Positions 1 through 37,263 are shown, counted from the stretch's first letter. The stretch is 64,000 nt of DNA from an uncultured Chitinophagales bacterium (GCA_964550435.1 CAZJZI010000005.1:10713-74712), one strand, 5' to 3'. The notes: a model not told the origin generated them from the sequence alone. Translations and numbers: made by a program.

Positions 1-1
1 G

Positions 2-2401
2 TATCTCTTTTCACCAGACCTTGCCCGATCGAATCATGGTCTCACACCACCTGGATTCCGGGAGGGGATAGCGGTTCACGCCGAAACTGAGTTACAATCC
101 GGCGTAGCCGGTCGCGGGAATTTTGCCCCCTTCACGAATCCATTTTATGCGAACCTGAGTTCAACTAACCCCTGGAATCTGAGTCAACTGCTTACTCCCT
201 CACCCATTTCACGACCACAGGACCGTTTTTACGTCGGAGGATACCAATTTTCAGACTGGCTTATGCGAACTCACGACTCGACGCTTGTCCGTAAGTCCCT
301 GCATCGTTTCGCTACTTTTCCATACATCGGATATGCCCCATACTTATGGCACGCCACAGGAAAATCGATGAGAAAATTATATAACGAGTTTGCTGACGAT
401 GCTGCTAATCGATTAAACATCCTTCACACTGACAGGGACTCGCTTTCGCTCAAATCTTTCCCACATCAAAAAGGGGATGGGGATTTCATGTTTGCTCCAG
501 TTTGGATGGATGATCAAAACATACTCTTTTATGGCTCCTGGTTTAATTTGGCTTCAGGATTCTACTCATTAGACACTCAAAATGGGCAATTCACGCGTAT
601 TTTCGAGACCAGAATTGATGAAAACTATCGTTTTGATATCAGTAGTGACCGAAAATCCATTTTATATTCGCGTTACCAGCCTCATCCCACACACTCTGCG
701 CGATTTATAACCGATATTTTTGAATTGAGTTTGGACTCAAATTCAGAGAAAAGAATTACAGATAATCAACGTGTTCGCTCTCCGCTTTACCAATCCGAAA
801 CGACTATCTTCGCTCTGGCTACCATCCAATCCACACATCTTCCTGTTACTATTGAAAAATCCACCGGTGAAGTAAATCCATGGGTGATTCTTTCTCCATC
901 TCCAGAAACCGATTTAATCACTGTCACTGATTGGGCATTGAGTCCAGACAAAAGTCAGATGGCAATCATTGTAGTCATCAATGAGCAACAAGGGATATGG
1001 ATCCAGTCCATATCAGAGCTCATGACCCTGGACCTCACGCGCCAGCCCAATGTCCACCTCCCCAACACCACACTACAAAACCCAACCTGGGCACCTGACG
1101 CCACACTCTGGTTCTCCTCGGGACAATCCGGTATTCAACAAATCTACCAATACAATCCCAAAACCATATCCCTTTCCCAGCGAACCAACCACCTCTGGAA
1201 TCTCACATTCCCGGCTTTATCACCCGACGGATCAACCCTGAGCGTCGTCACCCAGTCGCAAAACAATCGCATCCTCGCCACCATCCCAACCACCTCCCTC
1301 AACTCACTCCCCATTTCAACACCAACCAGGCAACTCCCAGTCCTTACTGCGTCCCCCATTCCATCATACGATCTAACCCCGACCCGCTACCGGACCGGTG
1401 CTGCCTGGCTCAAGCCCCGAACCGTTCTTCCTTGGACAACAGAGCTCAATTCAGACGGCGATCTAGCATACGGTATTAGTCTTCACAGTTCCGATGTGCT
1501 ACGTCAAAATGCGTATCAGGCTGACATCCTGTACGGTAACGAAACCTTGTTTTATGATCTGAACTATCGATACTCCGGATTCACACCGATGCTTTTGATC
1601 CGTGCGATGCAATCTCCTTATGATCCTGGAAATCCGACGGATCGAAAGAACATTCGATTCTTTGGTATCGAACGGGAATACGGTTTGGGATTCATATACC
1701 AGCACCTGATTGACCACCGAAATACCGCGAACAGTTTCTATGTCCAACCAGAGTTACTGTACCGAACATCACAAATAGTGGTAGAAGATGACCAAATCAG
1801 TGAGAATAATCAGACTACTCCATGGATAGGTTCTATCAGAGCCCGAGTATACTCCTCTTTCAATTATCGCTTGAGATCAAATATCAGGTCGGTAACTCCG
1901 GTTACCGGAGCACAACTTTTTGCTCAAATTGACCAGGATTTGACCATGATTGAGTCTGACAGATCCGAATTCTCAGGACTCAGATTAGGTGGTTTCACCT
2001 ATTTCCAACCAATAAAATCATGGAATCAAACACTTAGATTAGGGGTTCAATCCGTTTGGCAAAATCGACGTGGGTATAACACATTATCTTTAATACACGA
2101 TGGTTTTGACGATATGATTTCTGTTCCACAAGACTTTGTTTCAGTTTCTACCCGTTACACGATTCCACTTGGACATCCCGACTCCGGCAGTATCCTTATT
2201 CCCGCTTTTCTGGAGCGCTACTATCTTTCTTTATTCTCTGAAACCATCATAAATCACGATTTTTCCACTTTCAACTCAGTAATTGGAGCAGGATTACGCT
2301 CAAGAATCCGCATATTCTACAATTTAACCCTGGATATCGGCGTTGGAGTTGCAATTCAGCCAGGAAAATCCGGTTCGGAAACGATTGTCTTCGATTTTTG
2401 A
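2..2401 (+). CDS. Outer-membrane-type protein with TolB/PD40-like beta-propeller repeats; 5' end probably outside the window
   Basis: Frame 2 has no stop from nt 2 up to the listed ATG at 263, so the ORF likely starts upstream. PD40-like motifs are present (LSPDKSQMA, ALSPDGSTLSVV). The C-terminal half is rich in alternating aromatic/polar strands and ends ...IVFDF (terminal Phe, typical of OM beta-barrels). Confidence 0.5.
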   Translation, partial: YLFSPDLARSNHGLTPPGFREGIAVHAETELQSGVAGRGNFAPFTNPFYANLSSTNPWNLSQLLTPSPISRPQDRFYVGGYQFSDWLMRTHDSTLVRKSLHRFATFPYIGYAPYLWHATGKSMRKLYNEFADDAANRLNILHTDRDSLSLKSFPHQKGDGDFMFAPVWMDDQNILFYGSWFNLASGFYSLDTQNGQFTRIFETRIDENYRFDISSDRKSILYSRYQPHPTHSARFITDIFELSLDSNSEKRITDNQRVRSPLYQSETTIFALATIQSTHLPVTIEKSTGEVNPWVILSPSPETDLITVTDWALSPDKSQMAIIVVINEQQGIWIQSISELMTLDLTRQPNVHLPNTTLQNPTWAPDATLWFSSGQSGIQQIYQYNPKTISLSQRTNHLWNLTFPALSPDGSTLSVVTQSQNNRILATIPTTSLNSLPISTPTRQLPVLTASPIPSYDLTPTRYRTGAAWLKPRTVLPWTTELNSDGDLAYGISLHSSDVLRQNAYQADILYGNETLFYDLNYRYSGFTPMLLIRAMQSPYDPGNPTDRKNIRFFGIEREYGLGFIYQHLIDHRNTANSFYVQPELLYRTSQIVVEDDQISENNQTTPWIGSIRARVYSSFNYRLRSNIRSVTPVTGAQLFAQIDQDLTMIESDRSEFSGLRLGGFTYFQPIKSWNQTLRLGVQSVWQNRRGYNTLSLIHDGFDDMISVPQDFVSVSTRYTIPLGHPDSGSILIPAFLERYYLSLFSETIINHDFSTFNSVIGAGLRSRIRIFYNLTLDIGVGVAIQPGKSGSETIVFDF

Positions 2402-2438
2402 TTACATTATGATATAAACTCTAACCAACTTCACAGCT

Positions 2439-2981
2439 ATGAAAACTTCTCTGATTTCTCTGTTTACTCTTTTAATCGTGCTGGTAGCAAGCACGAGTGA
2501 TGTACTTGCACAGCAGGTCCCAAACCCGCGTGTGAGCCCAACCATGATCTCAGCAACTACTGTTGATGACGCGTATCTCAAAGTTGTTTATGGGATGCCT
2601 TTCAAACGTGATCGTGTTGTATTTGGTGAGCTGGTTCCTTACGGTCAAGTATGGCGTACCGGTGCTAATGAAGCAACTGAAATTACCTTGACCAAGGACA
2701 TGGTTTTCCATAATACTGAAATCCCAGCTGGCCACTACTCTTTGTTTAGCATCCCAAACGAAAACGAATGGACAATCATTTTTAATCGTGAGTTAGGTCT
2801 CTGGGGCGCGTTCAACTACAAAGAAGAGCACGATGTAGCACGTTTTACTGTCCCGGTAGAAAATCTTGATGATACCTGGGAAGCTTTCCGTATTCTTGTT
2901 GTAAACGAAGATGGAACGCAAGCTATTCAAATGCGCTGGGATAAAACCGGCGTTACAATACCTTTTCGTGTTAATTCCTGA
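2439..2981 (+). CDS. Secreted DUF2911-family protein
   Basis: Signal peptide MKTSLISLFTLLIVLVASTSDVLAQQ. Motifs VVYGMPFKRDRVVFGELVPYGQVWRTGANEATEITL and AGHYSLF are typical of DUF2911. Confidence 0.6.
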   Translation: MKTSLISLFTLLIVLVASTSDVLAQQVPNPRVSPTMISATTVDDAYLKVVYGMPFKRDRVVFGELVPYGQVWRTGANEATEITLTKDMVFHNTEIPAGHYSLFSIPNENEWTIIFNRELGLWGAFNYKEEHDVARFTVPVENLDDTWEAFRILVVNEDGTQAIQMRWDKTGVTIPFRVNS

Positions 2982-3007
2982 TTAGCGGTTTAAAACTGAT
3001 TTAAACT

Positions 3008-3439: not shown

Positions 3440-4444
3440 TTATATTATTTTTCCAATTTGAATTAGTTTCTCATCATTCTCAACTGCCCAACTTTGAATA
3501 GACTTTGAAGCATCAGGTGATGCTATAATTACAAGTCCAACACCCAGATTCATAGACAGACGCATATCATCTTCAGGGACGTTACCAAGTTGCTGAATCA
3601 ATTGAAAAATTGCGGGACGATCCCAACTTGAATAGTCCACATCCATTTTTAGTCCGCCATGCAGAACTCGTTTTGTATTTCCTTCTATTCCACCACCTGT
3701 AATATGTGAAAATGCATTTACGCCTGGGATGGATTTGAGTCCTCTGATTACAGATAAATATGATCTGTGCACCGCTAGTAATGCTTCTCCAACACTTTTT
3801 CCATCAAGCTCATCTGGTCTATCATTCACATCATAACTATTAAATAACACCTTGCGTGCCAATGAGTATCCGTTAGTATGAAGACCAGTACTAGGAACTC
3901 CCCACATGATATCTCCGGATTTTACTTTTGTACCGTCGATGATTGCGTCACGATCTACAACTCCAACAATAGTACCAGCAAGGTCAAATTCTCCATCTTT
4001 ATAGATATCGGGCATTTCAGCGGTTTCACCACCAACCAGGGCACAACCATTTTCTTTACAAGCAACTGTAAATCCTTTAATTACATCATAAGCGATGTGC
4101 TGTTGAAGTTTTCCCGTTGAAAAATAATCCAGGAAGAAAAGTGGTTCAGCCCCACAAACTGCGATGTCGTTCACGCAATGATTTACCAGATCTTGACCAA
4201 CGGTATCATATTTTTCATGTTTGAAAGCAACAATAAGTTTTGTTCCTACACCATCAACACTGCTCACCAGTACAGGATCTTTCATTGTTGTAAAATCTGG
4301 TCTAAAAAGACCTCCAAATCCACCGATGTTAGCTAAAACCGACGAATTATGGGTTTCTTTGACGATTCCTTTAATAGAATCAACCAGTTCTTCGCCTGCT
4401 TTTACGTCAACTCCGGAATCTTTGTAGGTAAATTGCTTTTGCAT
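3440..4444 (-). CDS. purM: Phosphoribosylformylglycinamidine cyclo-ligase (AIR synthetase)
   Basis: YKDSGVDVKAGEELV N-terminus, DGVGTK, full-length PurM-like 334 aa. Confidence 0.95.
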   Translation of the reverse strand: MQKQFTYKDSGVDVKAGEELVDSIKGIVKETHNSSVLANIGGFGGLFRPDFTTMKDPVLVSSVDGVGTKLIVAFKHEKYDTVGQDLVNHCVNDIAVCGAEPLFFLDYFSTGKLQQHIAYDVIKGFTVACKENGCALVGGETAEMPDIYKDGEFDLAGTIVGVVDRDAIIDGTKVKSGDIMWGVPSTGLHTNGYSLARKVLFNSYDVNDRPDELDGKSVGEALLAVHRSYLSVIRGLKSIPGVNAFSHITGGGIEGNTKRVLHGGLKMDVDYSSWDRPAIFQLIQQLGNVPEDDMRLSMNLGVGLVIIASPDASKSIQSWAVENDEKLIQIGKII

Positions 4445-4539
4445 GATAGATGAATGAAACGTATCTCGTTTGGGTTGTATAAAGATACAAATATGAGAAG
4501 AGTCTTTTAAGCTTTTAAAAGAATACTTTTCCCCTAAGG

Positions 4540-4916
4540 TTTTCCACAGATGTATTCGAAAAGTAAATATTTTATTTAAATGTTCTCTTAACTATTAGGT
4601 GGTGTGGATATGTGGATAAAAAAGTTATTCAGAGTACTTGTTATATTTGTGGGTGTGTTGTTAATAAAAATGTGGAAAATTTGATTCTATTTTTTAAAGA
4701 CTTTATCAAAATATGAACTACACTTATTAACACTGTCACATATATCATATATGTAGATTTTGACCGATAATCCACATATAAAGTTATCCTGATTTTATGT
4801 GGGTTTCCTTTCATTTTCTGTGGATGAAAATGTATAACTAAATTTGCATTTTGAATTTTGTTCTTGTGAACAAATTATTAACGCAGTTTATCCACTTATC
4901 AACACAGTTATACACA
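4540..4916. promoter_or_regulatory. DnaA-box cluster / candidate oriC in the purM-dtd divergent spacer
   Basis: Nine 9-mers with 0-1 mismatch to TTATCCACA at 4540, 4603, 4611 (perfect, reverse), 4671, 4768, 4819, 4888, 4896 and 4908, flanked by AT-rich tracts. Confidence 0.45.
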
Positions 4917-5356
4917 TGAAAATAGTACTCCAACGTGTCTCCAAGGCGGATGTTAAAGTCGATAAAAAGGTTGTTGGGGCTATAGGATATGGACTGTTGG
5001 TTCTCGTTGGATTTCATACTGATGATACTCAGGAATCAGTTCGATGGATGTGTGATAAAGTTATAAAAATGAGAATATTCCACGATGATGATCAGAAAAT
5101 GAACAGATCGATACAGGATGTGAATGGCGGATTACTTGTTGTTTCACAATTTACATTATATGGTGATGCTCGCAAGGGTAACAGACCGAGTTTCATTGAA
5201 AGTGCTCGCCCGGAAATAGCTATCCCGTTGTATGAATATATGCTCGATTATATAAAGTCTGAATCAAATCTGAAAGTTGAAAGCGGAGAATTTGGTGCGA
5301 TGATGGAGGTATCATTGGTTAATGATGGACCAGTTACTATTCTATTGGAGAAGTAA
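4916..5356 (+). CDS. dtd: D-aminoacyl-tRNA deacylase
   Basis: MKIVLQRVSKADVKV... and SQFTLYGD motifs. I prefer the internal ATG at 4916 (146 aa, canonical length) over the track start at 4844. Confidence 0.9.
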   Translation: MKIVLQRVSKADVKVDKKVVGAIGYGLLVLVGFHTDDTQESVRWMCDKVIKMRIFHDDDQKMNRSIQDVNGGLLVVSQFTLYGDARKGNRPSFIESARPEIAIPLYEYMLDYIKSESNLKVESGEFGAMMEVSLVNDGPVTILLEK

Positions 5357-6249
5357 TGTCTATTCTGTTTCTCTTTGTAGATGGTATTGGAATTGGGGGT
5401 GATTGTACTGATAATCCATTCAGTATGTATGAATGGCCCGGTTTTTCATCCATTACATATGGACAAAAATTAACTCTTAAAGCCCATTTTAATAGTACTT
5501 CCTCACTTGTTTTTAAGGCGATTGATGCCAATTTAGGCGTGGATGGATTACCACAATCCGGAACTGGACAAGCCACTTTGTTCTCTGGACAAAATGCTTC
5601 AAAGATTATAAATAAACATTTTGGTCCTTATCCACATTCCGGAATTAAACATCTTTTGATGAAAGAAAGTCTTTTTCATAAATCCATTGAGATGGGAAAA
5701 AGACCATATTTCATAAATGCATTCCCACAGATATTCTTTGAAAGAGCTCAGGTTAGAAACCGATGGAGTTGTTGTACCTTAATGACTAAAAGTTCTGGTC
5801 TGAAAATCAATTCTGTAGATGAAGTCATTGATGAACAAGCTATTACAGCCGAAATTATTCAGGATTACTGGCGTCAGCATCTGGATTTAAAGATTCCGGC
5901 GATTTCTATATTACAAGCAGCCGAACGCGTTGCTAAAGTAAGTTCAGCTTTTGATTTAACACTAATGGAATACTATTTGACAGACAAAGCAGGTCACGAG
6001 CAAAACATAGATACGGCCTTTAAAGCATTGGAAAGACTCGACACATTCTTAAAGTACTATATTGAGGAGAAACCCGCAGATCAGACGTTAGTTATCTGCA
6101 GTGATCATGGAAATATTGAAGATTTATCAGTTAAAACTCATACTGTTAATCCTGTCCCTTTGATTGTTCACGGACCGAAGGCAGCTTTTTTCACAGATGT
6201 GGAATCTATACAGGATGTGACACCATCGATTCTTCGCAGCCTGGTATAA
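5356..6249 (+). CDS. Alkaline-phosphatase-superfamily metalloenzyme (phosphoglycerate/phosphopentomutase-like)
   Basis: Metal-ligand-like motifs FVDGIGIG, TDKAGHEQ and CSDHGN. The start codon overlaps the dtd stop (TAATG). Confidence 0.55.
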   Translation: MSILFLFVDGIGIGGDCTDNPFSMYEWPGFSSITYGQKLTLKAHFNSTSSLVFKAIDANLGVDGLPQSGTGQATLFSGQNASKIINKHFGPYPHSGIKHLLMKESLFHKSIEMGKRPYFINAFPQIFFERAQVRNRWSCCTLMTKSSGLKINSVDEVIDEQAITAEIIQDYWRQHLDLKIPAISILQAAERVAKVSSAFDLTLMEYYLTDKAGHEQNIDTAFKALERLDTFLKYYIEEKPADQTLVICSDHGNIEDLSVKTHTVNPVPLIVHGPKAAFFTDVESIQDVTPSILRSLV

Positions 6250-30858: not shown

Positions 30859-31560
30859 ATGTTTCACGTGAAACATACAATTTCAACTGGAAGTGTTTCA
30901 CGTGAAACATTGGAGTTAGTTGAAAGTCAAATTGCCGAGAATAGGGGATTGATTAGTGAGTATATCAGTAAGTTGCTTTATTGGAACAAGCGAGTAAACC
31001 TGGTTAGCAGGGATCTATCTGTAGAACTGATTGGCAAACATGTGGCGCATTCACTCATGATCCAGTATTCATCTGTATGGAACAACGACGCAAGCCTAAT
31101 CGTTGACGCTGGTTCTGGTGGCGGTCTTCCTGGGATTCCACTTGCTATGGTTTCAGGGAATCAATTTGAACTAGTTGATATCGTCGAGAAAAAAATGATG
31201 GCTTGTAAAGATATTGTAAGATCAATTGGAGTTCGAAATGTAAAGACAAAACACTCGAGTATTGAGCAAATAGTCCATAGTGTACCATTTCTATATGTAA
31301 CGAAGCATGCGTTTAAGTTGAATGATTTTTTGCAATTAACAGAGGGACAAAATTATTCAGCCGCAATTTTTCTCAAGGGGGATGATTACGAGAGTGAATT
31401 AAATGAATGTGAATCATCATTAATGCTTGAAGTAATCAAATTGTCCGATTATCATAGTGATATATTCTACGCAGGAAAAAATGTAGTCACCCTCTTCAAT
31501 CCACATGAAAAGCCAAGAACGCAGGCTTCAGATTCTTCTGATGCTTCAGTCGAGACGTAA
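30859..31560 (+). CDS. rsmG: 16S rRNA (guanine527-N7)-methyltransferase
   Basis: VSRETLELVE N-terminal motif and the SAM-binding motif DAGSGGGLPGIPLA. It follows mnmG as in the classic gidA-gidB pair. The exact start is uncertain. Confidence 0.9.
   Translation: MFHVKHTISTGSVSRETLELVESQIAENRGLISEYISKLLYWNKRVNLVSRDLSVELIGKHVAHSLMIQYSSVWNNDASLIVDAGSGGGLPGIPLAMVSGNQFELVDIVEKKMMACKDIVRSIGVRNVKTKHSSIEQIVHSVPFLYVTKHAFKLNDFLQLTEGQNYSAAIFLKGDDYESELNECESSLMLEVIKLSDYHSDIFYAGKNVVTLFNPHEKPRTQASDSSDASVET
30860..30875. promoter_or_regulatory. parS site 1 (perfect consensus palindrome)
   Basis: TGTTTCACGTGAAACA, exact 16-bp parS consensus; includes the last two bases (TG) of the rsmG start codon. Confidence 0.8.
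30894..30909. promoter_or_regulatory. parS site 2 (perfect consensus palindrome)
   Basis: TGTTTCACGTGAAACA again, 34 bp from site 1; encodes VSRET in a different codon phase. Confidence 0.8.
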
Positions 31561-32443
31561 GCACATAAATGTAGACTATCTGGCCGAATATTTCGATGTT
31601 AGCCGTCGGACCATATTCAGAGACCTGAACTTCATATCCGAAATGGATGTGCCCATAGCCCACGATCTGGAAAGTGGCTACTCGATTCCAAAGACATTCT
31701 CAATTCCACCTCTCATGTTTAATGACAGAGAAATCTCTGTTATTCGGGTTGGCTTATCATTTATTGAGTCACAGACGAACACCGATATGAGAGTTGCCGC
31801 AAAATCAGTGGCAATAAAGATAGAGAATGTGCTCCCCCCAGCATTAAAACCTCTGTACACTACAATGGAAAATAGCGTCATTGTAGATCCGGTTCGTAAT
31901 CGTTTATCTGATGAAATCAGTGAGAGTGACTGGTACGTCATATCGGGCGCTATATCAAATAATAACAGTATTTTATTTAGATATAAAAAAACAGAACTTA
32001 CCAGAAATGTAGATCCGTATATGCTCGTTTACTATAGTGATCACTGGAATTTAATCGGGTATGACAAAGGGCGAGTTGGATACAGAAATTTCAGACTAGA
32101 GTTCATATCAGACCTTGAAGTGACAGACTCGAAATTCGAAAGAGCTGATGACTTAGGGCCAACACATCTATTTAAAGGGCTCGACGATAAGTCAAAGCAG
32201 AGCGAGGTTTCCATCAAAGTTAAAGTGAATATATGGAATGAGTTTTATAGGACAATCCCAGCAGAAATTATAGACAAGAAAAAAGTAGGGGCCTATTATG
32301 AAGTTAAATTGAAATTCGATTCGTTAGAGAATTTAGACAGGATACTTTTTAGATATGCTAATGATGTTATCCCATTATCACCCAATGAGTTGCTTTATAT
32401 TCGTAAGACCAGGTTATCTGAAATGTTAGAAGAGATCAAATAA
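31505..32443 (+). CDS. HTH + WYL-domain transcriptional regulator (YafY-like)
   Basis: N-terminal DeoR-type HTH (RRLQILLMLQSRRKHINVDYLAEYFDVSRRTIFRDLNFI) and a central WYL-like region (YYSDHWNLIGYD). It overlaps the rsmG 3' end by 56 nt. Confidence 0.75.
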   Translation: MKSQERRLQILLMLQSRRKHINVDYLAEYFDVSRRTIFRDLNFISEMDVPIAHDLESGYSIPKTFSIPPLMFNDREISVIRVGLSFIESQTNTDMRVAAKSVAIKIENVLPPALKPLYTTMENSVIVDPVRNRLSDEISESDWYVISGAISNNNSILFRYKKTELTRNVDPYMLVYYSDHWNLIGYDKGRVGYRNFRLEFISDLEVTDSKFERADDLGPTHLFKGLDDKSKQSEVSIKVKVNIWNEFYRTIPAEIIDKKKVGAYYEVKLKFDSLENLDRILFRYANDVIPLSPNELLYIRKTRLSEMLEEIK

Positions 32444-32494: not shown

Positions 32495-35044
32495 CTATTC
32501 GATATCTAATCCAAGATCAGCTTGTGGTGCATCACTACCCTCGGGGGTTGGTGTCCCATCGGGTGCAATACCGCCTTCCAGTGTTGAATCAATTTCATCG
32601 TCATCATCGGAAACTACTCTTGTAACTCCTCCGATACTGTCTTCAACACCAAGTTTTATAATTCTAACGCCTTGAGTGTTTCGTCCCATGGATCGAATAT
32701 CCTTACTATGCATTCGGATAATCTTTCCTTTTTGGGTTATTATCATCAAGTCGTCATTGTCGTTAACTTCTTTAAGTGCAATCAAACTTCCGGTTTTCGG
32801 TGTAATCTTCATGGTTATTACGCCTTTACCGCCTCGTGTTTGTTCACGATAGTCGTCAACCAAACTACGTTTACCGTATCCTTTTTCAGAAATGGCAAGT
32901 ACAGTTGCTTCATTGGTGTTTTTGACCACAACCATATCCACAAGCTCGTCATCAGCATTTTCATCCAGATTCATACCTCGAACACCACGAGTATTTCGAC
33001 CCATGTCCCTAACATCAGTTTCATAGAATCTGATTGCACGTCCATTTTTAGCACCTAGTATAATTACGCTTGTGCCATCGGTGAGTTTTGATTCGAGTAG
33101 TGTATCGCCGTCATCAATATTGATTGCTATGATACCATCTTTACGTGGTCTACTATATGCTTCGAGAATGGTTTTCTTAACAACACCCTTCTTGGTAGCC
33201 ATGATGATATAGTGATTGTTGATATAGTTCTCATCTTCCAGTGTCTTGATTGGAACAAAGGTTTTAACTCTATCATCTCGGTCAATCTGGATTAGGTTAA
33301 CAATAGCCCTACCACGACTTAGCCGGGTTCCTTCAGGGATTTCATAAACCTTGAGCCAATAACATTTCCCTTTTTCAGTAAAGAAGAGAATATAGTTATG
33401 GTTCGTGGCAACGAAGAGATGCTCGATATACTCTTCATCTTTGGTAGTCGCGCCCTTGAGTCCGACCCCACCACGTTTTTGACGTCTATATCCACTAACG
33501 GGTGTACGTTTTATATAACCGGTATTGGAAATAGTAACTACAACATCTTCGTCGGCAATCATATCCTCAATACTGAAATCTTCAGCAGAGTACACAATCT
33601 GGGTACGACGTTTGTCACCATATCTATCCTTAAGGTCGTTCAGTTCAAACTTGATGATATTAAGTTGTGCTTGTCTGCTTCCCAGGATTCGGCGGAATTC
33701 TTTAATCTGATCCAGAATATCTTTGTATTCAAGATCTATTTTATCACGTTCGAGAGCAGTAAGCTTCTGTAAACGCATGTCCAGTATGGCTTTAGCCTGT
33801 ATGTCGGTTAACCCATACTTCCTGCGAAGCTGATCATTTGCTTCTGGTACATTTTTTGAAGCTCGGATCGTTTTAATAACCTCGTCAAGGTTGTCGATAG
33901 CAATCTTCAACCCTTCCAAAATATGCGCTCGTGCCTCAGCCTGATCCAAATCATATAGTGTACGACGAATAATCACTTCGATACGGTGATCAACGAAGTG
34001 ACGGATCAATTCTTTGATGTGCATCACCTTCGGACGACCCTTGACCAAGGCAAGGTTAATAATTCCGAAAGTAGTTTGCATCGAAGTGTACTTGTACAAC
34101 TGATTCAAAACTACACTAGGAACAGCTCCACGTTTCAGAATGATAACAAGGCGCATGCCCTCACGGTCTGATTCGTCACGGACATCAGCAATGTCAGTAA
34201 GTTTTTCAAGTGATATTAACTCGGCTATCTTCTGAATTAATAATGCTTTGTTAACCTGATATGGAAGCTCGGTTACTACGATTTGCTCACGATTCCCACG
34301 TAGCTCCTCAACGGTAGCTAACGCACGAAGTGTAACCTTTCCACGTCCCGTTTCATAAGCCTCTTTAACACCTTCGTATCCATAGATAATACCACCTGTA
34401 GGAAAATCAGGAGCAGTAATGAACTTCATCAACTCAGCTATAGTGATATCCTGATTGTCGATATAAGCGTTGATTCCGTTTACAACTTCAGTCAGGTTGT
34501 GGGGAGCCATGTTGGTAGCCATACCAACTGCAATACCAGATGAACCGTTAATCAATAGATTTGGAACCATACTTGGAAGTACGGTTGGTTCGGTAAGAGT
34601 ATCGTCAAAGTTTGGTTGGAAGTCGACGGTATTCTTATTGATGTCAGAGAGCATTTCCTCGGCAATACGCTTCATTCTTACCTCGGTATAACGCATCGCG
34701 GCAGCAGAGTCACCGTCCACGGACCCGAAGTTACCCTGTCCATCTACGAGTGGATAACGAAGCGAAAACTCCTGAACCATACGGACGATGGTATCATAGA
34801 CCGCTGAATCACCATGAGGGTGATATTTACCAAGAACCTCACCTACGATACGTGCACTTTTCTTGTAAGGCCGATTGTGAAGCATTCCAAGTTCACTCAT
34901 TCCATATAGGGCACGTCTGTGAACCGGTTTAAGACCGTCACGAACATCTGGAAGGGCGCGGGACACGATAACCGACATCGAATAATCGATGTACGATGAT
35001 TGCATCTCGCTTTCAATTGTTATAGGTATAATTTTATCTGCCAT
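32495..35044 (-). CDS. gyrA: DNA gyrase subunit A
   Basis: DGLKPVHRR, active-site region AAMRYTE, C-terminal beta-pinwheel repeats, acidic tail. Confidence 0.97.
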
Positions 35045-35060
35045 AATGAGTTAGGTCGTT

Positions 35061-37028
<1,968 letters not shown>

Positions 37029-37171
37029 CTATAAACGTGTTTGTAGTGCACTAAAACCGATAAAGCCATATCGGATTCCCACTTAAACGCAGATGAACAC
37101 ATTAGAACAAAATAACAGTATTTAGTCAATTTTGCAGTTTTTTTGACTAAAAAAGATTCATGTGGGAAGTG

Positions 37172-37180
37172 TGTGGATAA
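37172..37180 (-). promoter_or_regulatory. Isolated perfect DnaA box in the gyrB/rpmB divergent spacer
   Basis: TGTGGATAA is the reverse complement of TTATCCACA. A TGTGGGAAG half-match lies at 37161-37169. Confidence 0.35.
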
Positions 37181-37263
37181 CTGAATTTTATAATTGTTTA
37201 TGCTACGAAATAGTGCTATATTTGTAATCTTTCGAAAAATAATTCACACAATTTAGTTGAAAA

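What the first reader, a model, noticed from the sequence alone, without database searches (positions are those of the whole stretch)
4445..4918. Dense DnaA-box cluster in the purM/dtd divergent spacer: candidate oriC not adjacent to dnaA
This 471-bp spacer is the longest non-coding gap in the window. Nine 9-mers within 0-1 mismatch of TTATCCACA lie in 377 bp. They are 4540-4548 TTTTCCACA; 4603-4611 TGTGGATAT fused to 4611-4619 TGTGGATAA (a perfect box, reverse orientation); 4671-4679 TGTGGAAAA; 4768-4776 TAATCCACA; 4819-4827 TGTGGATGA; 4888-4896 TTATCCACT; 4896-4904 TTATCAACA; and 4908-4916 TTATACACA, which abuts the dtd ATG. Both orientations occur. The boxes are interspersed with very AT-rich tracts (roughly 4560-4595 and 4681-4760) that could act as an unwinding element. 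The origin-linked genes mnmG-rsmG and two perfect parS sites lie 26 kb away, and dnaA/dnaN are not in the window. Gene orientation to the right of the spacer is only weakly biased to the + strand, so support from strand bias is weak.
Basis: partly seen in the sequence, partly recalled or inferred. Interest (0 to 1): 0.6.

Follow-up and report, generated by a model that had tools for sequence, protein, structure and literature searches.

The report
Predicted chromosome origin between purM and dtd
The 471-bp gap between purM and dtd is most likely this bacterium's chromosome replication origin: an ordinary DnaA-type origin that lies away from the dnaA gene, as is already known to be common in this bacterial group.

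Summary
Nine DnaA boxes (0-1 mismatch) lie at 4540-4916, against 0.25 expected from shuffles of the spacer.

The cluster is conserved in 11 related metagenomic genomes (Bacteroidota/Balneolota-labelled MAGs and contigs, PurM identity down to 64%). In the closer relatives the boxes keep their distances from the dtd start to within 1-2 nt.

The conserved core is a left box, then about 45 nt of AT-rich DNA, an invariant TAG, a 4-nt G-rich spacer, and an 8-bp-offset double box (TGTGGATATGTGGATAA). This layout resembles the DnaA-box/DnaA-trio unwinding module of B. subtilis and has the polarity of E. coli oriC (DUE to R1 ... R4).

Box columns are 83% conserved and the other spacer columns 53%. Unrelated dtd and purM loci carry no boxes.

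Orientation-corrected GC skew changes sign at the spacer, but the signal is weak.

No dnaA gene and no second box cluster were found from about -29 kb to +59 kb.

Verdict: predicted oriC, confidence about 0.8. It is a new member of a known kind. The main rival is a non-origin DnaA-box cluster that titrates DnaA or regulates the flanking genes.

The parts
4445..4915 (.). Whole purM/dtd divergent spacer = predicted oriC (471 bp, 72% A+T)
   Evidence: Conserved in 11 related loci: L001-L004, L007-L010, L014, and the partly held spacers of L095/L096.
4540..4548 (+). Left DnaA box TTTTCCACA. It bounds the AT tract on the purM side and faces it.
   Evidence: 95% column identity, with TCCACA invariant. 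It lies 61-66 nt from the double box in the eight relatives measured.
4549..4589 (.). AT-rich tract 1, the candidate DNA unwinding element (DUE)
   Evidence: 82% A+T. 4567-4596 is the least stable 30-mer of the spacer. The tract is AT-rich in all relatives, with a recurring ATTTTT(T)AAA core.
4590..4598 (+). DnaA-trio-like triplets AAC TAT TAG (5'->3'); the box-proximal TAG is invariant
   Evidence: TAG shows 100% identity in the 8-sequence alignment. It is present in all 9 relatives with a readable module, 4 nt from the proximal box in 8 of them and 5 nt in L009. It meets the (NAN)x3 rule of PMC8287927.
4599..4602 (+). 4-nt G-rich spacer GTGG between the trio and the boxes
   Evidence: The length is fixed at 4 nt in the window and eight of nine relatives, and is 5 nt in L009.
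4603..4619 (-). Double DnaA box TGTGGATA|TGTGGATAA with an 8-bp offset; the distal box is perfect
   Evidence: This is the most conserved 10-mer of the spacer at 0.94 identity. The composite recurs in the nine relatives with a readable module.
4625..4633 (+). Weak box TTATTCAGA (2 mismatches) inside the conserved AAGTTATTCAGAG
   Evidence: repeat family D3, shared with 4780-4792.
4659..4679 (-). Box pair with a 12-bp offset: weak TTATTAACA (4659-4667) and TTTTCCACA (4671-4679)
   Evidence: Box 4671-4679 has 0.90 identity.
4680..4760 (.). AT-rich tract 2, an alternative or additional easily melted region; it contains weak boxes at 4703 and 4724
   Evidence: 4661-4760 is the least stable 100-bp stretch of the 64-kb window. 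Weak boxes.
4768..4792 (+). Box TAATCCACA (4768-4776) plus weak box TTATCCTGA (4784-4792)
   Evidence: AAAGTTATCC(C/T)GATT is conserved in the closer relatives (window, L001-L004; partly L007).
4812..4858 (.). Very highly conserved block holding box TGTGGATGA (4819-4827, minus orientation) and a Bacteroidetes-type -7-like motif TAAATTTG (4839-4846). Probably the dtd promoter.
   Evidence: Nearly identical in the window and L001-L004. Motif scan. The promoter consensus TAnnTTTG is from my own knowledge; function is inferred.
4888..4916 (+). Right-end array of three boxes, TTATCCACT / TTATCAACA / TTATACACA, with offsets of 8 and 12 bp. It is in opposite orientation to the left double box and abuts the dtd ATG.
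   Evidence: Inverted repeat I1, 4602-4620 versus 4887-4905, 89% complementary. Identity 0.62-0.84.
3440..4444 (-). purM, transcribed away from the spacer
   Evidence: TIGR00878, E = 7e-109.
4916..5356 (+). dtd (D-aminoacyl-tRNA deacylase), transcribed away from the spacer
   Evidence: TIGR00256, E = 1e-56, aligned from residue 1.
30860..30909 (+). Two perfect parS sites (origin-proximal marker, 26 kb from the spacer)
   Evidence: 0.01 expected by chance.

Best explanation
The purM/dtd spacer is the DnaA-dependent chromosomal replication origin (oriC) of this Bacteroidota/Balneolota-group bacterium. The dnaA gene lies elsewhere.

Proposed mechanism:
1. DnaA occupies the strong boxes: the perfect box at 4611-4619, the invariant left box at 4540-4548, 4671-4679, and the right-end array at 4888-4916.
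2. DnaA then fills the weaker neighbours, which sit at 8- and 12-bp offsets.
3. The double box at 4603-4619 sits 4 nt from an invariant TAG and the AT tract 4549-4598. From there a DnaA-ATP oligomer extends onto the plus strand (5'-AAC TAT TAG-3') and melts this tract. This follows the box/trio 'basal unwinding system' of B. subtilis and the DUE-R1 arrangement of E. coli.
4. The oppositely oriented right-hand boxes act like the R4-side half of E. coli oriC, or like the distal looping boxes of B. subtilis.
5. Divergent transcription of purM and dtd away from the spacer may help opening.

Shown here by computation: enrichment, conservation, architecture, low duplex stability, skew polarity, and the absence of dnaA or another cluster nearby.

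Inferred: DnaA binding, the exact site of unwinding, helicase loading, and any role of transcription.
For: 1. Enrichment. There are 9 boxes against 0.25 expected. The rest of the window has no stretch with more than 3.

2. Conservation of the cluster. Seven further genomes keep dtd-spacer-purM with 5-12 boxes. In the closer relatives (L001-L004) the boxes sit at conserved distances from the dtd ATG: 367, 304, 296, 236, 88, 19 and 11 nt, to within 1-2 nt. L009 (cut at the contig end) and L095/L096 (spacer only partly held) also carry the module. In L014 a 170-aa gene separates purM from the spacer, yet the cluster stays.

3. Footprint. Box columns are 83% identical and other spacer columns 53% (Mann-Whitney p = 4e-17). 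The TAG is 100% conserved.

4. Core module. Left box, about 45 nt AT-rich, TAG, 4 nt, TGTGGAwA|TGTnnAnAA is present in all nine relatives with a readable module. It fits the BUS search rules of PMC8287927: box with 2 mismatches or fewer, spacer 16 bp or less, at least 3 NAN.

5. Polarity. It is the same as in E. coli oriC, checked on real E. coli sequence between mnmG and mioC. The DUE lies 5' of R1 = TGTGGATAA, and the far-end R4 = TTATCCACA.

6. Duplex stability. The two AT tracts are the first and third least stable 100-bp stretches of 64 kb.

7. Negative controls. Of 61 unrelated metagenomic dtd loci, 54 have 0 boxes upstream, 6 have 1, and only the relative L014 has 5. purM in L005/L006 has another upstream gene and no boxes.

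8. Skew. The orientation-controlled 'side' coefficient is positive in all 9 sources where it could be fitted (the window and 8 relatives). The pooled change point lies at -500..0 bp from the spacer centre. The baseline is +0.015+-0.008 on the dtd side of the window. On the purM side it is -0.051+-0.023 (L095, 0 to -20 kb) and -0.026+-0.011 (L097, -9 to -29 kb).

9. Origin-proximal context. parS x2, mnmG-rsmG and gyrB-gyrA lie within 24-32 kb.

10. Prior. In Bacteroidetes oriC is commonly far from dnaA (PMC4755523).
Against: No whole-chromosome skew profile or marker-frequency data exist, and the dnaA locus of this lineage could not be examined.

The skew signal is small. GC3 skew is confounded by a coding-strand effect and has the wrong sign at -19 to -29 kb. 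The right-minus-left difference at the spacer exceeds all 12 unrelated-locus controls in two relatives (L004, L014) and in the L001-left/window-right composite, but not in L002.

The formal 'at least 3 contiguous NAN trios' rule is met only in the window, L004 and L007. It has a 10-25% chance rate in this AT-rich context.

Gene orientation near the spacer is not co-directional with forks leaving it.

Three boxes and a promoter-like motif lie in the dtd leader region, so a regulatory role cannot be excluded.
Confidence: 0.8

Rival explanations
1. A non-origin DnaA-box cluster. It would act as a DnaA titration or reactivation site (like E. coli datA or the six B. subtilis DBCs), or as a DnaA-controlled divergent promoter region for dtd and purM. 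The true origin would be elsewhere, for example at dnaA.
For: B. subtilis has six intergenic DBCs outside oriC, mostly close to oriC, and some regulate neighbouring genes (PMC3245932).

Here box 4819-4827 lies just upstream of a -7-like motif, and three boxes lie between that motif and the dtd ATG.

The dnaA locus was not seen. The skew evidence is weak.
Against: [quoted passage not shown] This cluster instead keeps its position and internal spacing across genomes whose PurM is only 64-88% identical.

It carries a conserved AT tract plus an invariant TAG at a fixed distance from a double box. That is an unwinding-type module not needed for titration.

dtd and purM elsewhere have no boxes.

Bacteroidetes origins are usually not at dnaA.
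Confidence: 0.13
2. One part of a bipartite origin, or one of two origins. A second DnaA-box module elsewhere would be required or would act as an alternative.
For: Bipartite origins exist (H. pylori, PMC3479198, listed; B. subtilis oriC1/oriC2). Only about 88 kb around the spacer was inspected.
Against: No second cluster lies between -29 and +59 kb. The spacer already contains boxes in both orientations plus an AT-rich element, so it looks self-sufficient.
Confidence: 0.04
3. Chance or compositional artefact of an AT-rich intergenic region.
For: The spacer is 72% A+T, and the box consensus is AT-rich at its 5' end.
Against: Dinucleotide shuffles of the spacer itself give 0.25 boxes, with a maximum of 3 in 5000. 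The C/A-rich core TCCACA occurs 12.7 times per kb here against 0.59 per kb in the window. The boxes are the conserved columns.
Confidence: 0.01

Closest known systems
Escherichia coli oriC (between mnmG/gidA and mioC)
   Same: Not next to dnaA (about 42 kb away; PMC3245932). AT-rich DUE at one end. The DUE-proximal box reads TGTGGATAA on the DUE strand and the far-end box is inverted. Both use TTATCCACA-type boxes and close-packed weaker sites.
   Different: There are no GATC-rich 13-mers here, and no IHF or Fis sites were identified. The box-to-box span is 285-305 bp here against 180 bp (R1-R4). Box pairs overlap with an 8-bp offset. An extra box sits on the far side of the AT tract. The flanking genes differ.
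Bacillus subtilis basal unwinding system (DnaA-box#6/7 + DnaA-trios; PMC6669920, PMC8287927)
   Same: Tandem boxes, a short G/C-type spacer, TAG (3'-GAT-5') triplets and then AT-rich DNA. The better box is the distal one. It lies 12 bp from the first trio, within the reported 10-13 bp peak.
   Different: The B. subtilis module lies between dnaA and dnaN. Here the two boxes overlap by one base, whereas the search rule allows at most 3 bp between boxes. Only 1-3 contiguous trios are present, depending on the genome.
Predicted and validated Bacteroidetes origins (Prevotella intermedia OMA14 chromosome 1; Cytophaga hutchinsonii oriC plasmids)
   Same: Roughly 0.5-kb intergenic clusters of E. coli-type boxes at a skew switch, far from dnaA (PMC4755523). 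The C. hutchinsonii prediction was confirmed experimentally (PMC3531139, ref. 11).
   Different: The sequences and flanking genes of those origins were not available to compare. The purM/dtd position appears specific to the lineage found here.
Non-origin DnaA-box clusters (E. coli datA; B. subtilis DBCs)
   Same: Several high-affinity boxes in an intergenic region in the origin-proximal part of the chromosome.
   Different: Those clusters have no conserved unwinding module, and their positions are not conserved between species.

Membership tests
DnaA-dependent bacterial chromosomal origin (oriC) | Cluster of DnaA boxes well above background | tested here: met
   9 boxes against 0.25 expected; 16 boxes at 2 mismatches or fewer.
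DnaA-dependent bacterial chromosomal origin (oriC) | Adjacent AT-rich DNA unwinding element | tested here: met
   4549-4598 and 4680-4760 contain the first and third least stable 100-bp stretches of the window. Both are AT-rich in all relatives. Actual unwinding was not tested.
DnaA-dependent bacterial chromosomal origin (oriC) | Coincides with the switch of strand compositional asymmetry | tested here: inconclusive
   Orientation-corrected GC skew changes sign at the spacer in pooled and extended data. The magnitude is small, only -29 to +59 kb is covered, and GC3 is inconsistent.
DnaA-dependent bacterial chromosomal origin (oriC) | Conserved among related genomes as a non-coding element | tested here: met
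   11 related loci. Boxes are 83% identical against 53% for the rest of the spacer.
DnaA-dependent bacterial chromosomal origin (oriC) | Replication starts there in vivo / the fragment replicates autonomously | not testable with these tools
   Needs marker-frequency analysis or an oriC-plasmid assay.
Basal unwinding system (BUS; PMC8287927) | DnaA box with 2 mismatches or fewer, within 16 bp of the trios | tested here: met
   The perfect box at 4611-4619 is 12 bp from TAG. The 1-mismatch box at 4603-4611 is 4 bp from TAG.
Basal unwinding system (BUS; PMC8287927) | At least three contiguous NAN trios, with GAT (3'->5') most frequent next to the box | tested here: inconclusive
   The window has AAC TAT TAG, so it meets the rule. 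Only 3 of the 9 genomes tabulated (window included) meet it. The chance rate is 10-25%. The proximal TAG is invariant.
Basal unwinding system (BUS; PMC8287927) | Tandem boxes separated by at most 3 bp | tested here: not met
   The two boxes overlap by 1 bp (8-bp offset) in the window and the relatives. This is a deviation from the published search rule.
Basal unwinding system (BUS; PMC8287927) | DnaA-dependent strand separation that needs both boxes and trios | not testable with these tools
   Needs the BHQ strand-separation assay with the cognate DnaA.
datA / DBC-type DnaA titration site | Box cluster that binds DnaA but does not initiate replication | not testable with these tools
   Box cluster: met. 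Absence of origin activity cannot be shown in silico. The presence of an unwinding-type module argues against it.
DnaA-regulated promoter | Boxes overlapping or just downstream of a promoter of the regulated gene, as a feature tied to that gene | tested here: inconclusive
   Boxes flank a -7-like motif upstream of dtd. However, 60 of 61 unrelated dtd loci and the purM loci of L005/L006 carry 0-1 boxes.

The most novel reading that the evidence does not exclude
This lineage may open its origin in a way not described for the model systems. A short (about 45 nt) AT tract is clamped between two inward-facing DnaA-box elements: the invariant left box and the 8-bp-overlapping double box. Composite 17-bp 'double boxes' would be the real recognition unit, and DnaA might engage both strands.

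The evidence does not exclude this. The fixed 61-66 nt distance, the invariance of both elements, and the dominance of 8- and 12-bp offsets all fit it. However, the trio-like triplets on the minus strand next to the left box are not above chance.
Probability: 0.1. Interest if true: 0.5.

Novelty: new member of a known kind. Interest (0 to 1): 0.3.

Why it matters
It gives a precise, testable origin for an uncultured Bacteroidota/Balneolota-group lineage. The element map names the boxes, the trio, the spacer and the AT tract.

Practical uses:
- setting the start point and replichores of these genomes;
- growth-rate estimates from metagenome coverage (peak-to-trough ratio);
- building oriC plasmids for genetics, as was done for Cytophaga hutchinsonii.

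It adds a comparative data point: the box / G-rich spacer / TAG arrangement extends to this group, and origins away from dnaA keep E. coli-like polarity. It does not change current understanding of replication initiation.

Tried and rejected
- Plasmid similarity search of the spacer: no match.
- Exact-protein look-ups of the window's PurM and Dtd, and of P0007: not on record.
- Rfam, at gathering threshold on the whole window and at E <= 1 on the spacer: only tRNA-Asp elsewhere, so no riboswitch or sRNA in the spacer.
- Sigma-70 promoter and terminator scan: not above shuffles, and that consensus probably does not apply to this group.
- A 57-aa ORF inside the spacer (4641-4814, minus strand): not conserved in any relative.
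- The perfect box at 5628-5636: it comes from the codons for P-Y-P-H and varies at synonymous sites in relatives, so it is not a functional box.
- A minor box enrichment at 57.5-58.8 kb: the gene there is ffh, not dnaA.
- A second, convergent set of DnaA-trios on the minus strand beside the left box: runs of 0-3, no better than shuffled AT-rich DNA.
- GC3 skew as a cleaner replication signal: it is dominated by a coding-strand effect in L095 and L097.
- The PPK/RuvB divergence point about 21 kb to the purM side, considered as an alternative origin: it has no boxes, and the GC-skew baseline has the same sign on both sides.
- Walking along the 257-kb contig: the exact protein of L095 was not returned, so a 74%-identical relative's contig (L097) was used instead.
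- Literature search for Balneolota origins: only false hits on the genus name 'Oricola'.
The regex motif scan agrees with it.

Full report
**Observation.** The sequence at 4445-4918 is as described.
- All nine 9-mers within one mismatch of TTATCCACA are at the stated positions and strands.
- The flanking genes are purM (3440-4444, minus strand) and dtd (4916-5356, plus strand). Both were identified by NCBIfam equivalog models, so the spacer is 471 bp.
- Dinucleotide-preserving shuffles of the spacer itself give 0.25 boxes on average and never more than 3 in 5000 trials.
- The remaining 63.5 kb hold 21 boxes, with no more than 3 in any 500 bp.
- The core TCCACA is about 20-fold enriched in the spacer. 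Seven more boxes appear at two mismatches.
- The two AT-rich tracts are real. 4661-4760 is the least stable 100-bp stretch of the window and 4548-4647 the third least stable.
- The spacer is the longest non-coding gap. Its only internal ORF of 50 aa or more (57 aa) is not conserved.
- Rfam finds nothing in the spacer.

**Context.**
- The window carries two perfect parS sites at the start of rsmG.
- It also carries mnmG-rsmG and gyrB-gyrA at 32.5-37 kb. All of these are typical origin-proximal markers.
- No DnaA signature motif or tblastn hit occurs in the window or in any fetched locus.
- The closest relatives are MAGs labelled 'uncultured Chitinophagales' or 'Bacteroidetes bacterium' (PurM identity 77-88%). 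More distant ones are labelled Balneolaceae or Balneolales (64-69%). NCBI places Balneolales in the Bacteroidota/Chlorobiota group.

**Comparative evidence.**
- In L001-L004, L007, L008 and L010 the divergent dtd-spacer-purM arrangement is kept. The spacer (456-520 bp) holds 5-12 boxes.
- In L001-L004 the boxes sit at the same distances from the dtd ATG as in the window, to within 1-2 nt: 367, 304, 296, 236, 88, 19 and 11 nt.
- L009 (cut at the contig end) and L095/L096 also carry the module.
- In the metagenomic relative L014, a 170-aa gene lies between purM and the spacer, yet the cluster persists next to dtd.
- In the eight-sequence alignment A1, box columns are 83% identical to the window and the rest of the spacer 53% (Mann-Whitney p = 4e-17).
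- Negative controls. Of 61 other metagenomic dtd loci with at least 500 bp upstream, 54 have no box, 6 have one, and only L014 has five. In L005/L006, purM follows a co-oriented gene and has no boxes.
- The cluster is therefore not a general regulatory feature of either gene. It is a lineage-specific, strongly constrained non-coding element.

**Anatomy.** The conserved core, read on the plus strand, is:
- the left box TTnTCCACA (4540-4548);
- about 45 nt of AT-rich DNA with a recurring ATTTTT(T)AAA;
- triplets ending in an invariant TAG (4596-4598);
- a 4-nt G-rich spacer (GTGG);
- a double box, TGTGGATA|TGTGGATAA (4603-4619), whose halves are offset by 8 bp.

The rest of the spacer follows:
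- further minus-oriented boxes (4659 weak, 4671);
- a second AT-rich tract (4680-4760);
- a plus-oriented box at 4768 and a minus-oriented box at 4819;
- a 45-nt block (4812-4858), nearly invariant among the closer relatives, that contains a Bacteroidetes-type -7-like motif TAAATTTG;
- a right-end array of three plus-oriented boxes with offsets of 8 and 12 bp, abutting the dtd ATG.

Across the ten origins examined, same-strand box offsets are dominated by 8 bp (12 cases), 12 bp (19 cases) and 20 bp (6 cases).

**Comparison with known origin mechanics.**
- The published definition of the basal unwinding system (BUS) asks for a DnaA box with 2 mismatches or fewer, an optional second box, a spacer of 16 bp or less, and at least three NAN trios. 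The triplet 3'-GAT-5' (= 5'-TAG-3') is the most frequent next to the box, the better box tends to be the distal one, and the peak distance is 10-13 bp (PMC8287927).
- The window fits. It has AAC TAT TAG, a 4-nt spacer, a 1-mismatch proximal box, and a perfect distal box 12 bp from the trio.
- There are two caveats. Only 3 of the 9 genomes tabulated (window included) have three contiguous NAN, and that rule alone is met by chance 10-25% of the time in such AT-rich DNA. Also, the two boxes overlap instead of being separated by at most 3 bp.
- The strong evidence is therefore the invariance of TAG and of its 4-nt distance from the box, not the formal rule.
- I checked the polarity on real E. coli sequence. 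There the 13-mer DUE lies 5' of R1 = TGTGGATAA, and the far-end R4 reads TTATCCACA.
- The spacer has the same overall polarity: AT tract, then minus-oriented boxes, and finally plus-oriented boxes.

**Strand asymmetry.**
- Raw cumulative GC skew in the window is dominated by gene orientation.
- After controlling for orientation, the best change point in the window is at 1.5-5 kb.
- The 'side' coefficient is positive in all 9 sources where it could be fitted, the window and 8 relatives.
- The pooled change point within +-11.5 kb lies at -500 to 0 bp from the spacer centre.
- The right-minus-left difference at the spacer exceeds all 12 unrelated dtd loci and all internal positions of the window for L004, L014 and the L001/window composite, but not for L002.
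- I extended the purM side with two database searches. L095 comes from a 257-kb JGI contig that carries the same module. Its 20.6 kb on the purM side have a GC-skew baseline of -0.051+-0.023.
- L097 comes from a relative's 46-kb contig covering about -9 to -29 kb. Its baseline is -0.026+-0.011 in window orientation, with the same sign in both halves.
- The dtd side of the window has a baseline of +0.015+-0.008.
- The sign change is thus consistent but small. GC3 skew is confounded by a coding-strand effect and is inconsistent beyond -19 kb. I rate this line of evidence as supportive, not decisive.
- No other box cluster and no dnaA gene lie between about -29 and +59 kb.

**Interpretation.**
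- The best explanation is that this spacer is oriC (confidence about 0.8).
- The main rival is a non-origin DnaA-box cluster. B. subtilis has six of these near its origin, and some regulate adjacent genes (PMC3245932).
- Those clusters sit upstream of different genes in different Bacillus species and have no known unwinding module. The present element is conserved in position and internal spacing across deep divergence, and it includes an AT tract with a box-proximal TAG.
- A regulatory side-role is plausible. Box 4819-4827 and the three leader boxes bracket the putative dtd promoter. Both flanking genes are transcribed away from the spacer, which could aid opening as gidA transcription does in E. 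coli (my own knowledge; inference).

**Novelty.**
- Origins far from dnaA are stated to be common in Bacteroidetes (PMC4755523).
- One Bacteroidetes origin, that of Cytophaga hutchinsonii, has been validated with oriC plasmids (PMC3531139).
- I found no literature on Balneolota origins in the library.
- The finding is therefore a new member of a known kind. It is a well-resolved origin prediction for an uncultured lineage, with minor peculiarities: 8-bp overlapping double boxes, and a box on each side of the AT tract.
- The idea that both flanking elements load DnaA on opposite strands is not supported beyond chance. I keep it only as a low-probability novel reading.

Noticed in passing
window 30860-30909: Two perfect parS sites (TGTTTCACGTGAAACA), 34 bp apart start to start, lie at the very start of rsmG. 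No parA or parB is seen beside them among the genes annotated. A WYL/HTH regulator follows at 31505-32443.
   Followed up: partly
window 32495-37263: gyrA (32495-35044) and gyrB (35061-36986) are adjacent on the minus strand. A single perfect DnaA box (37172-37180) lies in the gyrB/rpmB divergent spacer. The apparent 1-kb gap that follows is filled by rpmB, rpmG and a 54-aa gene.
   Followed up: partly
window 4812-4858: This 45-nt block is nearly identical in the window and L001-L004, and is more conserved than most boxes. It contains box TGTGGATGA and a -7-like TAAATTTG. It is probably the dtd promoter, but another origin-binding factor is possible.
   Followed up: partly
window 5628-5636: A perfect TTATCCACA lies inside the gene downstream of dtd. 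It arises from codons for Pro-Tyr-Pro-His and varies at synonymous sites in relatives, so it is a coding coincidence.
   Followed up: yes
window 1-3000: The first 3 kb have higher G+C (0.45-0.47 against about 0.40) and a strongly negative GC skew (-0.2), even though the TolB-like beta-propeller gene at 263-2401 is on the plus strand. This inflates the apparent skew switch within the window.
   Followed up: partly
L005 5985-6043; L006 9939-9992: In a sub-lineage with 74% PurM identity, purM follows a co-oriented gene of about 500 aa with a spacer of about 55 bp and no DnaA boxes. The origin must lie elsewhere in those genomes, which points to a rearrangement with a breakpoint at the origin.
   Followed up: partly
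L097 12772-12924 (about 21 kb to the purM side of the spacer in a relative): This is a strong gene-orientation divergence point between ppk and ruvB, with about 10 kb of genes pointing away on each side. It has no DnaA boxes and no change in the orientation-corrected GC skew.
   Followed up: yes
window 4540-4548 and the minus strand of 4549-4565: On the minus strand a TAC triplet lies 2-3 nt from the left box in several relatives. L008 has three NAN triplets there and, by eye, L010 has five. A shuffle test covered the window and six relatives before the script stopped at L010, and it shows this is not above chance.
   Followed up: yes
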